From IMG/VR virus record IMGVR_UViG_2645727868_000018: a stretch of 15,264 nucleotides of DNA. One strand, 5' to 3'. The DNA comes from a virus (lineage: Duplodnaviria > Heunggongvirae > Uroviricota > Caudoviricetes). Of this stretch, positions 5,586-12,512 are shown piece after piece; position 1 is the first letter of the stretch, and each line of letters opens with the position of its first letter. Under the pieces are notes generated by a model, which ran no database searches, had not been told where the DNA came from, and saw only the letters and a list, made by a program, of their open reading frames with translations. The position numbers and the translations under genes were made by a program.

Positions 5586-5906
5586 TTAGTAGGGGAGCTC
5601 ATCGGTATCTGGCGTGTATTCGATGCAAAGTAACTGCTGGATTTTGTCATCGATAGCAGCAATACGCTGTTGGGCGTCGGCGACTGTTTTCTGTTTTTGT
5701 TCACGCAGTTGCTCGACCTGTAAACCGATGATGTCGATTGGCTCGGGCTGGTTAACGGTAATTTCAATTTCGCGGCTTTCCAGAAGGATGTACCTGTCTG
5801 GAAAATTTTTTGACATATCAACAGTCGCAACAAGCAGCTTTTCGTGGCTGAAAGTTGAAGTTGCATAATGAATAAAGAGTGTTACTGGGATGGTGCGCGC
5901 TTCCAT
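5586..5906 (-). CDS. Hypothetical protein (106 aa), first gene of the leftward early operon
   Basis: Strong SD (AAGGAG) 7 nt before the ATG at 5906; its stop lies 30 nt upstream of the 738-aa gene start. No recognisable family; not arginine-rich, so not N-like. Confidence 0.5.
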   Translation of the reverse strand: MEARTIPVTLFIHYATSTFSHEKLLVATVDMSKNFPDRYILLESREIEITVNQPEPIDIIGLQVEQLREQKQKTVADAQQRIAAIDDKIQQLLCIEYTPDTDELPY

Positions 5907-6303
5907 AGCGACTCCTTGGTAATGTATACTCAGAGCCGATCAGCGAATATTGATCAGCTTCCATAGCGTCAGTGTCGTTGGTCTTTCCTCATCACAAGTT
6001 TGGTCACTTGTGATAAATCCGAATGGTTTGGTCGCCGTTCGGGGTAACTGGCCCGCCTTGTGCGGGTCTTTTGCTATCTAAAGGGTGCCGGTTACGTTTC
6101 CGGCGTCGTTATGTTTCCATTACGACCGTACAGGGCTGGTCAGGCCCGGGCTGGTCTTTCCTGTTTTGAGCTGGTCAGGCTCATGGTCAACGCTGGTCAG
6201 GCGTGGTACTTCCTCCGGTCTTTCCCTGGTGTCACGCTGCGGGTTTGGCCTCTCCTGTTGGGGACTCAGGCACAGCGATAAAACCTGGCTGTGTGAAAAA
6301 ATG

Positions 6304-6323
6304 GCCCATCGTGCGGACTGGGC
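6304..6323 (-). terminator. Terminator-like hairpin plus U6 on the minus strand, 3' of the tRNA-like fragment
   Basis: Minus-strand reading GCCCA-gtccgcacga-TGGGC followed by CA-TTTTTT (plus 6296-6301 is AAAAAA). Short 5-bp stem with a 10-nt loop, so only a weak candidate. Confidence 0.25.
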
Positions 6324-6344
6324 AAAGACTAAACACAGCAAATT

Positions 6345-6372
6345 GATGATGGGCGCCCGGAATCGAACCGGG
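6345..6372 (-). other. tRNA-like fragment (T-arm plus acceptor-like 3' strand) inside the leftward leader
   Basis: Minus-strand sequence CCCGG-TTCGATT-CCGGG-CGCCCAT has a perfect 5-bp T-stem and canonical T-loop. No complementary acceptor 5' strand, D-arm or CCA could be found, so it is not a complete tRNA gene. Confidence 0.3.
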
Positions 6373-6769
6373 TAACGGGCAGGGAGTTCCCGTTAAACAC
6401 CTGTTCACCACAACCGGGAGCGCACTCCGCCATTTCAAAATTTAACGACAAAGCTCAAAGTTGAGTCGATGAAGTGCGCTCTCGTGTTGTAGCCAGGACT
6501 CTTCCCTGGTGGTCACACCGTATCGCCTTGATGGTGAATCAATCGCTCATACCTGGCTGTGGCTTGCACATTCCGGCTACCTGCTATGGAGACAACGCGT
6601 TAAGGCTCCGCTTCCATCCAGACCGCTTCGACACATGTGCCATATGCCGGTGAAGTCTTTCCCTCTGTCACCGTGTTGGCGCCGACGCGCAAAATTTGGT
6701 GCCGTCTTTCCGGCTGTCAGAACGTGTTTCTGAACAACTGCCGCTGGGTAAGCGTTGTTGATGAAAGTG

Positions 6770-6798
6770 ACTTTACAATTTGTATTTGTAATGGTCAA
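6770..6798 (-). promoter_or_regulatory. Candidate leftward early promoter (pL-like) with embedded operator motif
   Basis: On the minus strand: -35 TTGACC (rc of 6793-6798), 17-bp spacer ATTACAAATACAAATTG, -10 TAAAGT (rc of 6770-6775). The spacer and flank carry the same ATTTGTA-type motif as the cI/cro operator region (ATAATTTGTA also at 6811-6820). Confidence 0.4.
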
Positions 6799-6916
6799 TG
6801 TGTTTTTAAAAAATAATTTGTAGTGAGGGGCAAAAAAATATTCACTGTGTAAAGGTGTTTTTGTGTTAGGGGAAAGTTGCATGCCAGCAGCGGCTGGCCT
6901 GGAAATTTGAACTGAA

Positions 6917-7345
6917 CTATTTTGTCTGGTTTTTGGCTTCAAGTAGTTCTTTTAGCAGTAGATCGAAGTGCTCTCTTTTTTCTTTTAGCTCATTGATTAA
7001 TTTATTTTTTTCGCTCTCAGGCAGTCCTCTGAATAGTTGCAGTAGAGCCTGTTCTTGCGGGGTTAGTTCTTGATTGTAATTACCCGGGTGTAGTGTGGAT
7101 TCATCCAAATATTCCCCTTCATTCATGAAGAAAAAATGAACAGGGTATCCGGTCACTTTTGCTAGCTTGTCTAATTTATCTTTTCTTGGAGTTACCCCAT
7201 TACACCATGCCTGAACTGATTGAGCCGTAACCCCAATATGGCGAGCTAACTCAGATTGAGACCAGCCTAAGTCTTTTAGAATCCGTTGTAGTCGGCTAGC
7301 AAAAGCCATGTTTTTCGTTTTTGTGTTCATACCGTAAGGATACAA
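6917..7345 (-). CDS. Phage repressor, XRE-family HTH, without S24 peptidase domain (CI/RacR-like)
   Basis: 142-aa ORF divergent from the cro-like gene. HTH motif ...LGWSQSELARHIGVTAQSVQAWCNG... in the N-terminal part; the C-terminal ~60 aa is a charged coiled coil with no Ser/Lys autopeptidase motifs. Start uncertain (Met at 7345, 7330 or 7309); the transcript may be leaderless. Confidence 0.8.
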   Translation of the reverse strand: MYPYGMNTKTKNMAFASRLQRILKDLGWSQSELARHIGVTAQSVQAWCNGVTPRKDKLDKLAKVTGYPVHFFFMNEGEYLDESTLHPGNYNQELTPQEQALLQLFRGLPESEKNKLINELKEKREHFDLLLKELLEAKNQTK

Positions 7346-8194: not shown

Positions 8195-8233
8195 GCGCCT
8201 GACCAGCGTTTAACTTATACCGAGGAAAGACCG

Positions 8234-10615: not shown

Positions 10616-10653
10616 CCACGCCTGACCAGCGTGAAATAACCGAGGAAAGACCA

Positions 10654-12241: not shown

Positions 12242-12270
12242 TTGACTTAGAAAAAGTCCGGGGCTATAGT
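12242..12270 (+). promoter_or_regulatory. Near-consensus sigma70 promoter (TTGACT, 17 bp, TATAGT) upstream of the antirepressor leader
   Basis: Seen in sequence: -35 TTGACT at 12242-12247, 17-bp spacer, -10 TATAGT at 12265-12270. Located directly after the stop of the 73-aa ORF. Confidence 0.5.
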
Positions 12271-12330
12271 TTCCGCGCAGCCGCAAAATCGGTTGCCGGG
12301 ATTGGCGTCCCGGATATCTAAGTGACGCAT

Positions 12331-12351
12331 AGCCGCGTTAGCGGTTTTTTT
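12331..12351 (+). terminator. Short intrinsic terminator or attenuator (6-bp stem with one G-U pair, 4-nt loop, U7) about 75 nt downstream of the promoter
   Basis: AGCCGC-GTTA-GCGGTT followed by TTTTT (T-run 12345-12351). Preceded by a perfect hairpin CCGGGA-TTGGCG-TCCCGG at 12296-12313. Together with the promoter this defines a short transcript or a leader attenuator about 160 nt ahead of the antirepressor start. Confidence 0.4.
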
Positions 12352-12512
12352 ATGTGTTAGGCACGGCCACATTCGCATTATGGTGGGCTGTGTGGGGGCT
12401 TCTGTGGAAGCGCCGGGTTCACTTAGCCGGTTACGCCAACCCTGCACAGCTCACCACCAGATGATTGGCGTCGCTGGTGGTGATGAAAAAAACACTAAGT
12501 GAGGCCACTGCG

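What the first reader, a model, noticed from the sequence alone, without database searches (positions are those of the whole stretch)
6345..6372. tRNA-like T-arm and acceptor fragment embedded in the prophage leader
CCCGG-TTCGATT-CCGGG-CGCCCAT on the minus strand is a textbook T-stem and T-loop with an acceptor-like 3' strand, and a hairpin plus U6 lies about 25 nt downstream. No matching 5' acceptor strand or D-arm exists, so it is not a functional canonical tRNA. It could be a relic att site from an earlier integration at a tRNA gene, marking a mosaic junction, or a tRNA-like 3' structure on a phage ncRNA. It differs from the 3' ends of the three host tRNAs in this window.
Basis: seen in the sequence. 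Interest (0 to 1): 0.45.

Follow-up and report, generated by a model that had tools for sequence, protein, structure and literature searches.

The report
tRNA-like module in phage RNA
The tRNA-like hairpin is real and is the remnant of a "tRNA slot" in a widespread, apparently uncatalogued structured RNA of enterobacterial phages, which here is followed by a small RNA that copies the business end of the host regulator RprA.

Summary
The T-arm look-alike (6372-6356, minus strand) and the hairpin+U6 downstream are exactly as described. It is not a tRNA gene by ARAGORN or Rfam. No tRNA with a matching 3' end was found, so an att-site relic has no support.

It lies in a composite non-coding RNA in the early-left leader of a leuZ-integrated prophage, made of:
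- a pseudoknotted core (6653-6486) with strong covariation. It is not in Rfam 15 but occurs in more than 140 phage and prophage loci across Enterobacterales;
- a long covarying helix P6 (6489-6411);
- a 3' slot starting at G6411. Relatives carry a genuine tRNA-Arg(UCU), a tRNA-Ile call, or a tRNA-like domain there;
- a 46-nt RprA-like seed and terminator (6341-6296).

The window's slot is a D-arm-less tRNA-like fold. Its 5' strand GUGGUG (6411-6406) pairs with CAUCAU (6350-6345), so a 5' partner does exist, in a shifted register. The closest relatives lack the T-arm. An E. whittamii copy keeps it and diverges immediately 3' of it.

Best reading: a degenerate tRNA-like module separating the leader RNA from an RprA-mimic sRNA. 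A role as a processing or insulating signal is inferred, not shown.

The parts
6770..6798 (-). Sigma-70-like promoter (TTGACC-17-TAAAGT), the presumed early-left (PL-type) promoter downstream of the cI-like gene
   Evidence: Consensus scan, 9 of 12 matches. Similarity to the BUCT708-type phage leader begins at about 6763, just downstream of it. Its function is inferred.
6678..6696 (-). 5' boundary of the transferable RNA module
   Evidence: E. coli SE11 has a different immunity region and becomes near-identical from about 6696 onward.
6486..6653 (-). Conserved pseudoknotted core RNA. It comprises P1 (6649-6629), P2 plus its extension (6625-6574), the invariant GGUAGCCGGAAUGUGCAAG (6581-6563), an H-type pseudoknot (6542-6516) and the P5 hairpin with a GGAAGAG loop (6509-6493)
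   Evidence: In alignment A2, 95.6% of cells are paired against 29-42% for slid partners. Eleven pairs show compensatory changes, and 0 of 500 shuffles reach the observed covariation. Covariance model R1 scores 138.8 bits here and 111-164 bits in independent species genomes. No Rfam family matches.
6411..6489 (-). P6: a long helix, CAAC..GAGAGCGCACU paired with AGUGCGCUC..GUUG, with a variable apical insert
   Evidence: Cognate strand pairs fold at -21.3 kcal/mol on average against -16.8 for non-cognate pairs, with several distinct compensatory variants. The 199-nt fold containing it has z = -4.0.
6345..6411 (-). tRNA slot holding a D-arm-less tRNA-like domain. Closure is GUGGUG (6411-6406) with CAUCAU (6350-6345). 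An inner helix is GGUG (6401-6398) with CGCC (6355-6352). An anticodon-like hairpin lies at 6395-6373 (7 bp, 9-nt loop). The T-arm lies at 6372-6356
   Evidence: MFE and centroid folds. Relatives hold tRNA-Arg(tct), tRNA-Ile(aat) or tRNA-like domains in the same slot, starting at the same G after GUU. The fold alone is not thermodynamically unusual (z = -1.5).
6356..6372 (-). T-arm look-alike CCCGG-UUCGAUU-CCGGG, the feature in the finding
   Evidence: It is identical in the E. whittamii homolog. It is absent from BUCT708-type and L012-type relatives.
6296..6341 (-). RprA-like sRNA module: seed UUGCUGUGUUUAGUCUU (6341-6325) and an intrinsic terminator with U6 (6323-6296)
   Evidence: 84% identity over 50 nt to the 3' end of chromosomal rprA in 5,424 E. 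coli genomes. The Rfam RprA hit is 37.4 bits, E = 0.013, below the gathering score of 70. The seed GCUGUGUGUAGUC, followed by varied terminators, occurs in 30 of 139 family loci and never on the opposite strand.

Best explanation
The hairpin is the T-arm of a degenerate, D-arm-less tRNA-like domain (6411-6345). This domain fills the 'tRNA slot' of a composite phage non-coding RNA.

The RNA is transcribed leftward from the PL-type promoter. In order, it consists of:
1. a conserved pseudoknotted core;
2. a long helix, P6;
3. the slot, which in relatives holds a real tRNA or a tRNA-like domain;
4. a 3'-trailer sRNA that carries the seed of processed RprA and ends at an intrinsic terminator.

Shown here:
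- the family and its structure;
- the positional equivalence of the slot to genuine tRNAs;
- the acceptor-like closure, kept in different lineages by different 3' sequences;
- the homology of the trailer to the RprA 3' end.

Inferred:
- The compact tRNA-like fold acts as a structured spacer and processing signal. This would resemble a tRNA in a pre-tRNA transcript, or the leuZ 3'ETS arrangement.
- RNase E would cut the AU-rich linker CAUCAAUUU (6350-6342), possibly with RNase P acting at the P6/slot junction.
- These cuts would release the leader RNA and a roughly 46-50-nt Hfq-type sRNA that mimics RprAproc.
For: - Real tRNA in the slot: in 26 of 121 distinct IMG/VR family members, and in ETEC H10407, SPN1S and ST512-KPC3phi13.3, a genuine tRNA-Arg(tct) starts 160-230 nt after the invariant block. 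The window's slot starts at offset 170 and its T-arm at offset 209. Phytobacter has a tRNA-Ile(aat) call at the same junction.
- tRNA-like versions: K. pneumoniae ATCC 13883 has a tRNA-like domain with a D-like hairpin, a T-arm hairpin (GCUGG-UUCGACU-CCAGC) and closure GUGGUG/CAUCAC.
- Shared ends: the first 11 nt of the window's slot (GUUGUGGUGAA) match the generic 3' domain exactly. Its T-arm sits where that domain has its last hairpin, GCCGG-loop-CCGGC.
- Closure maintained by different sequences: the 5' GUGGUG pairs with CAUCAU in the window, CGCUAC in E. whittamii, CAUCAC in Klebsiella and CACCAC in the generic form. The real tRNA uses GUGGCAU/AUGCCGC.
- Strand bias: T-arm-like hairpins outside called tRNAs occur 7 times on the RNA strand of family extracts and 0 times on the opposite strand.
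- RNA strand: the core helices contain conserved G-U pairs (P1 columns 7-23 and 10-20). These would be C-A mismatches on the other strand, so the signal is RNA on the minus strand.
- Family is real: core and P6 covariation, and the covariance-model hits.
- Trailer: homology to RprA, and the conserved seed followed by varied terminators. The last 47 nt of RprA form a functional processed species (PMC9262595).
Against: - The T-arm is lineage-specific. The closest relatives (BUCT708-type and L012-type) have a 20-37-nt spacer without it, yet keep the seed and terminator. The sRNA therefore does not need it.
- The slot fold is not more stable than shuffled sequence (z = -1.5 and -1.3).
- tRNA models score it poorly: 19.3 bits from Rfam. 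ARAGORN calls it only at 90% thresholds, using the P6 3' strand as acceptor. That pairing is lost in E. whittamii.
- Within the roughly 460 carrier genomes the segment is nearly invariant, so selection on the T-loop cannot be measured.
- No expression or processing data were available.
- The function of the core RNA is unknown.
Confidence: 0.6

Rival explanations
1. Neutral pseudo-tRNA remnant. A cargo tRNA once sat in the slot and decayed, losing its D-arm and anticodon arm. The T-arm survives only because it is a stable GC hairpin and has no present function.
For: The slot holds real tRNAs in relatives. The sister lineage manages without the element. The tRNA score is weak. The fold shows no thermodynamic signal.
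Against: Both ends of the slot match the non-tRNA generic domain (GUUGUGGUGAA...CAYCAY), not tRNA-Arg (GUUGUGGCAUUAGC). The closure is preserved by non-homologous 3' sequences in E. whittamii and in the window. The one substitution in the anticodon-like stem keeps pairing, A-U to G-U.
Confidence: 0.2
2. Functional T-loop module or decoy. The T-loop is kept for a tertiary contact inside the large RNA, or to attract or titrate a factor that binds the tRNA elbow. Candidates are RNase P, TruB, TrmA or a tRNA-targeting defence nuclease.
For: T-arm-like hairpins recur at several positions in the family, on the RNA strand only. Other members carry a mimic of 16S rRNA helix 11 (38 bits, E = 1e-7). Many members carry the RprA seed. 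The family therefore tends to display parts that look like host RNAs.
Against: No partner has been identified. The hairpin is absent from close relatives. None of this can be tested with sequence alone.
Confidence: 0.1
3. Relic att site: the 3' part of a tRNA gene left by an earlier integration, marking a mosaic joint.
For: T-arm fragments outside complete tRNAs are common in viral contigs: 94 of 125 occurrences of the 19-mer. A recombination breakpoint lies immediately 3' of the T-stem in the comparison with E. whittamii.
Against: No E. coli tRNA gene matches the 36-nt segment. At this database size, only matches of about 22 nt or more would have been reported. The 20-mer that includes the 3' strand is found only in this prophage. 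No integrase is adjacent, and the prophage's own attachment site is at leuZ. The position is a conserved slot inside an RNA family, and its 5' flank is homologous to that family's domain.
Confidence: 0.04
4. Chance resemblance of a GC-rich hairpin to a T-arm.
For: The first stage scanned many windows. 12 of 200 shuffles of this window contain the 11-mer.
Against: The full 17-nt arm is roughly 60 times rarer than the 11-mer. This estimate rests on three further Watson-Crick pairs at about 1/4 each. It also lies exactly in the slot that holds tRNAs in homologs, and further T-arm-like hairpins occur in the family on one strand only.
Confidence: 0.06

Closest known systems
tRNA 3' external transcribed spacer sRNAs (3'ETS-leuZ of the glyW-cysT-leuZ operon) and pre-tRNA processing
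   Same: A structured tRNA or tRNA-like unit is followed directly by a short trailer that ends at an intrinsic terminator and carries a conserved single-stranded seed. In relatives the unit is a real tRNA.
   Different: Here the tRNA is degenerate. The transcript is a phage early-left leader with a large structured 5' domain. The trailer seed is that of RprA. Processing has not been demonstrated.
RprA (Rfam RF00034), specifically its processed 47-nt 3' form (RprAproc)
   Same: 84% identity over the last 50 nt, covering the seed UUGCUGUGUGUAGUCUUUGCCC and the terminator.
   Different: The full model scores 37.4 bits, below the gathering score of 70. The rpoS-pairing 5' half is absent, with the tRNA-like domain in its place. 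The module is encoded in a prophage leader and has one G-to-U change in the seed.
tRNA-like domains in non-tRNA RNAs (tmRNA, bacterial Y RNA YrlA, MALAT1 mascRNA)
   Same: A T-arm with the canonical loop stacked on an acceptor-like closing helix, embedded in a larger ncRNA. It is plausibly read by tRNA-processing enzymes.
   Different: No Rfam hit to tmRNA or YrlA and no ARAGORN tmRNA call. There is no D-arm mimic in the window's copy, no CCA end, and no rsr or rtcB neighbours.
Large phage-borne ncRNAs associated with tRNAs (GOLLD, ROOL)
   Same: A long, ornate, prophage-encoded structured RNA with tRNAs adjacent or embedded, and of unknown function.
   Different: No Rfam match to either. The host range (Enterobacterales) and the architecture differ: a 165-nt pseudoknotted core, P6 and the slot.
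HK022 put RNA (cis-acting antiterminator in the PL and PR leaders)
   Same: A structured RNA at the start of the early-left transcript of a lambdoid prophage that has no N-like ORF, placed upstream of a terminator.
   Different: No similarity to HK022 putL by eye. The family covariance model finds nothing in the HK022 immunity region. This RNA is larger and is pseudoknotted. It also occurs outside early operons, for example between terminase and portal in Uetakevirus.

Membership tests
tRNA (RF00005; ARAGORN) | T-arm: 5-bp stem with a 7-nt UUCRANY loop | tested here: met
   CCCGG-UUCGAUU-CCGGG at 6372-6356.
tRNA (RF00005; ARAGORN) | 7-bp acceptor stem adjoining the T-stem | tested here: not met
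   With CGCCCAU as the 3' strand, only 4-5 of 7 pairs form in any register. The stable closure is GUGGUG/CAUCAU, with an extra 4-bp helix between it and the T-stem.
tRNA (RF00005; ARAGORN) | D-arm, and an anticodon arm of 5 bp with a 7-nt loop | tested here: not met
   There is no D-arm. The single extra hairpin has 7 bp and a 9-nt loop.
tRNA (RF00005; ARAGORN) | Detection at curated thresholds | tested here: not met
   ARAGORN at default settings calls none here. It calls a 'tRNA-Val' only at -ps90. The best Rfam clan hit is tRNA-Sec at 19.3 bits against a gathering score of 47.
tmRNA | tRNA-like domain plus tag reading frame, as detected by ARAGORN or Rfam | tested here: not met
   Searches give no tmRNA.
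RprA (RF00034) | Full-length covariance-model score at or above the gathering threshold | tested here: not met
   37.4 bits against 70.
RprA (RF00034) | 3' seed and terminator (RprAproc, the last 47 nt) | tested here: met
   84% identity over 50 nt to rprA in 5,424 genomes. Residue-level alignment. RprAproc is defined in PMC9262595.
RprA (RF00034) | rpoS-pairing 5' region and the Rcs-controlled promoter | tested here: not met
   The 5' two-thirds of the model aligns poorly to the tRNA-like domain. The promoter was not examined.
Prophage att-site relic | Identity to the 3' end of a host tRNA gene | tested here: not met
   No E. coli tRNA match. In IMG/VR the 20-mer occurs only in this prophage. 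The test is limited to matches of about 22 nt or more.
Prophage att-site relic | Next to an integrase or a prophage end | tested here: not met
   The integrase lies at 1133-2149, next to leuZ. The element lies 4.2 kb inside the prophage, in the immunity-proximal leader.
   138.8 bits at 6486-6653 (the window is in the seed alignment). Non-seed members score 111-164 bits. Pair statistics.
HK022 put RNA | Sequence and structure similarity to putL or putR | tested here: not met
GOLLD, ROOL, YrlA | Rfam covariance-model match | tested here: not met
   No hit at gathering thresholds or at E <= 10.
Hfq-dependent 3'ETS-type sRNA | Release by RNase E, and Hfq binding | not testable with these tools
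   This needs RNA-end mapping and Hfq co-immunoprecipitation or RIL-seq in a carrier strain.

The most novel reading that the evidence does not exclude
The window carries one member of an undescribed class of enterobacterial phage RNAs. The class has a conserved pseudoknotted core fused to exchangeable modules that copy host stable RNAs: a tRNA or tRNA-like domain, in some members 16S rRNA helix 11, and the seed of processed RprA. On this reading the T-loop is a working part. It would recruit the tRNA-processing or tRNA-modification machinery, or decoy a tRNA-targeting factor, so that the phage can deliver an RprA-mimic sRNA and a stable leader RNA into the host's RNA network.
Probability: 0.3. 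Interest if true: 0.8.

Novelty: new variant of a known kind. Interest (0 to 1): 0.62.

Why it matters
About 8% of complete E. coli genomes carry this prophage RNA, including O25b:H4-ST131 strains. More than 140 related loci exist in phages of at least a dozen enterobacterial genera.

If the reading holds, it would add three things:
- a structured RNA family that public catalogues lack;
- a phage-encoded mimic of the processed form of RprA, a regulator in the Rcs/RpoS stress network whose short form acts by a still unclear route (PMC9262595);
- a natural series running from real tRNA through tRNA-like domain to vestige at one fixed position. That series is a convenient system for asking what tRNA-like elements do inside larger transcripts.

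Tried and rejected
- tRNA and tmRNA gene: rejected.
- att relic: searched E. coli genomes and IMG/VR for the 3' end and found nothing beyond this prophage. The shorter T-arm 19-mer is common in unrelated tRNAs, mostly tRNA-Cys, and in fragments, so it says nothing about origin.
- HK022 put antiterminator: no similarity.
- Known Rfam families for the core: none in the window or in 11 related loci.
- Pas sRNAs of pathogenic E. coli: different loci and unrelated.
- Literature searches by sequence string and by keywords found only RprA itself.
- In-window targets complementary to the seed: none.
- BLAST of a generic 3' domain against E. coli did not recover 16S rRNA genes. The helix 11 resemblance therefore rests on the covariance-model hit and on reading the sequences by eye.
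- An alternative RNAalifold pairing, UGUGCAAGCC with GGUGUGACA, was set aside in favour of the pseudoknot stem CACC/GGUG. The reason is the linked change to AACC/GGUU.

Full report
**Context.** The window is E. coli pgsA-glyW-cysT-leuZ followed by a prophage integrated at leuZ.
- An 801-nt query around the finding matches 473 of 5,426 complete E. coli genomes, always on the chromosome and with no annotated feature.
- The finding lies in a gap of about 1 kb with no annotation (5907-6916). The gap separates a cI-like HTH gene (6917-7309, minus strand) from the first early-left ORF (5586-5906, minus strand).
- A sigma-70-like promoter at 6798-6770 points leftward.

**Observation.**
- The T-arm CCCGG-UUCGAUU-CCGGG (6372-6356), the following CGCCCAU, and a hairpin plus U6 at 6323-6296 are all present.
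- GGTTCRAWTCC occurs once in the window, against 0.06 expected.
- ARAGORN finds only the three host tRNAs. The best Rfam tRNA-clan hit is tRNA-Sec at 19.3 bits, E = 0.72.
- With thresholds lowered to 90%, ARAGORN draws a poor 'tRNA-Val' at 6425-6348. Its acceptor 5' strand is borrowed from another, much stronger helix.

**The hairpin plus U6 is an RprA homolog.**
- Rfam aligns 6404-6294 to RprA at 37.4 bits (gathering score 70), and the 3' part is nearly identical.
- BLAST matches 6341-6292 to chromosomal rprA at 84% identity in 5,424 genomes.
- This portion corresponds to processed RprA, the last 47 nt, which is a functional species (PMC9262595).

**A conserved RNA lies upstream.**
- A distant search of phage genomes with the whole gap found the full leader in 'Stenotrophomonas' phages BUCT708 and BUCT709, at 72% identity starting at the predicted transcription start.
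- It also found a shorter conserved segment (up to about 170 nt) in unrelated phages: Uetakevirus SPN1S, Tyrion and PAT1; Klebsiella SopranoGao and ST512-KPC3phi13.3; and the P1-like phages D6 and SJ46. It almost always falls in unannotated gaps.
- The alignment shows invariant blocks separated by variable hairpins.
- The 19-mer GGTAGCCGGAATGTGCAAG hits at least 120 IMG/VR contigs.
- It also hits 24 contigs from 22 GTDB species-representative genomes, 20 of them Enterobacterales. The genera are Escherichia, Citrobacter, Klebsiella, Enterobacter, Kosakonia, Kluyvera, Phytobacter, Buttiauxella, Pseudescherichia, Pseudocitrobacter, Superficieibacter and Erwinia.

**Structure of the core.** The test set was 23 non-redundant sequences.
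- The proposed helices are P1, P2 with an extension, P3, an H-type pseudoknot (S1 and S2) and P5.
- 95.6% of cells are paired, against 29-42% when the partners are slid. Eleven pairs show compensatory changes, and 0 of 500 shuffles reach the observed covariation.
- A covariance model finds exactly one copy per locus. It scores 111-164 bits in species genomes that were not in the seed alignment, 138.8 bits at window 6486-6653, and nothing in HK022.
- Conserved G-U pairs within the core helices and one-strand-only motifs place the signal on the minus-strand RNA.
- No Rfam 15 family matches the core in the window or in related loci.
- Four literature searches returned nothing on it.

**P6 and the slot.**
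- After P5 comes a long helix, P6 (6489-6411). Its base is always CAAC/GUUG, and its body shows several compensatory variants.
- A 3' domain begins immediately after GUU. In 26 of 121 distinct IMG/VR members, and in H10407, SPN1S and KPC3phi13.3, it is a genuine tRNA-Arg(tct) whose G1 is the last G of GUUG.
- Phytobacter has a tRNA-Ile(aat) call at the same junction.
- In 50 of 121 members it is a multi-hairpin domain closed by GUUGUGG...CCACAAC. Its first and last hairpin loops are complementary (GCUGAU and AUCAGC), like a tRNA elbow made of Watson-Crick pairs.
- K. pneumoniae ATCC 13883 has a version with a D-like hairpin, a T-arm hairpin and closure GUGGUG/CAUCAC.
- T-arm-like hairpins outside called tRNAs occur seven times on the RNA strand of family extracts and never on the other strand.

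**The window's slot.**
- It starts with GUUGUGGUGAA, identical to the generic domain. It folds as closure GUGGUG/CAUCAU, inner helix GGUG/CGCC, a 7-bp hairpin with a 9-nt loop, and the T-arm in the position of the generic last hairpin.
- The stability is unremarkable (z = -1.5).
- An E. whittamii prophage is near-identical from 6766 to 6351, with three substitutions. One of them changes A-U to G-U in the 7-bp hairpin.
- That prophage diverges right after the T-stem plus CGC, and loses the RprA-like module. Even so, its new 3' flank, CGCUAC, again pairs with GUGGUG.
- The nearest relatives that do carry the seed (BUCT708-type and L012-type) have a 20-37-nt spacer and no T-arm. The element is therefore lineage-specific, and the downstream sRNA does not require it.

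**The trailer.**
- The seed GCUGUGUGUAGUC, followed by terminators of different sequence, is present in 30 of 139 distinct family loci and never on the opposite strand. This includes Uetakevirus-like members where it lies downstream of the tRNA-like domain.
- This is the pattern expected of a base-pairing sRNA with a conserved seed. The seed is the same as that of RprA's 3' part.

**att-relic test.**
- The 36-nt T-arm and acceptor segment matches no E. coli tRNA gene.
- The 20-mer that includes the 3' strand occurs in IMG/VR only in identical copies of this prophage.
- The bare 19-mer T-arm is common in unrelated tRNAs and fragments, so it says nothing about origin.

**Interpretation.**
- The hairpin is best read as the T-arm of a degenerate tRNA-like module, sitting in a fixed tRNA slot of a composite phage RNA.
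- The proposed role is inference by analogy with pre-tRNA and 3'ETS processing. It would be a structured spacer and processing signal that separates a stable leader RNA from an RprAproc-mimic sRNA.
- The function of the core is unknown. It is not homologous to HK022 put.

Noticed in passing
window 1892, 2383, 5558, 5981, 6154, 6218, 6655, 6704 (minus strand); 8224, 10644, 15022 (plus strand): GGAAAGAC occurs 11 times against 0.55 expected, always on the transcribed strand. At four genes it ends 1-2 nt before the ATG (starts at 2381, 5555, 8234 and 10654). Five copies lie in the non-coding leader with no start codon after them. The loop of the conserved P5 hairpin (GGAAGAG) resembles it.
   Followed up: partly
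window 6135-6143, 6170-6178, 6192-6200 (minus strand); 8199-8207, 10622-10630 (plus strand): Exact CTGACCAGC repeats. The two plus-strand copies lie 13-16 nt upstream of a GGAAAGAC box and a gene start. This suggests a composite intergenic motif that is also repeated in the leader.
   Followed up: no
window 5988-6075 (plus strand): A terminator-like hairpin GGCCCGCCTTGTGCGGGTC followed by TTTTGC on the plus strand, with weak Rfam hits (Trp leader, isrK, isrB). It could be an antisense sRNA inside the leftward leader.
   Followed up: no
L102 3971-4017 (+) and L098 1953-1999 (-): The 3' tRNA-like domain of some family members contains a 47-nt mimic of 16S rRNA helix 11 (SSU model positions 172-218; 38.3 and 36.7 bits; E about 1e-7). 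Read against the E. coli 16S sequence from memory, it shows compensatory changes. BLAST against E. coli genomes did not recover it.
   Followed up: partly
L008 1855-1940; L098, same region: In ST512-KPC3phi13.3 and relatives, a second P6-like hairpin lies upstream of the core, directly after a promoter-like TTGACC...TAAATT. Its sequence type matches the window's P6 (CAACAUGAAAGCGCAC...GUGCGCUUCCAGGUGUG). P6-type hairpins therefore seem to act as module boundaries.
   Followed up: no
IMG/VR loci L010, L017, L047, L085, L088 and others; 196 matching places on E. coli plasmids: One group of IMG/VR loci carries only the 5' core (P1-P5). There it sits about 60 nt upstream of a 14-codon ORF that overlaps the start of a DnaB-like gene. 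I take these to be P1-like and the gene to be ban, from memory of the P1 map. The E. coli plasmid hits probably belong to the same group, but their context was not examined.
   Followed up: partly
window 6287-6294 versus 6332-6338 (minus strand): The sRNA seed GCUGUGU is complementary to ACACAGC just after the terminator's U-tract. A similar ACACAG follows the terminator in BUCT708-type relatives. Readthrough transcripts could therefore sequester the seed.
   Followed up: no
window 12264-12461 (plus strand): isrK, C4 antisense RNA and the c4-a1b1 target motif, all above Rfam gathering scores. This is a P1/P7-type immI antirepressor control module in the same prophage.
   Followed up: no
L167 (E. 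coli E24377A), 1544-1637: A truncated copy of the core. Only the 5' 95 nt are retained (31.5 bits), and it abuts a long ORF. This is a deletion or replacement variant of the leader.
   Followed up: no
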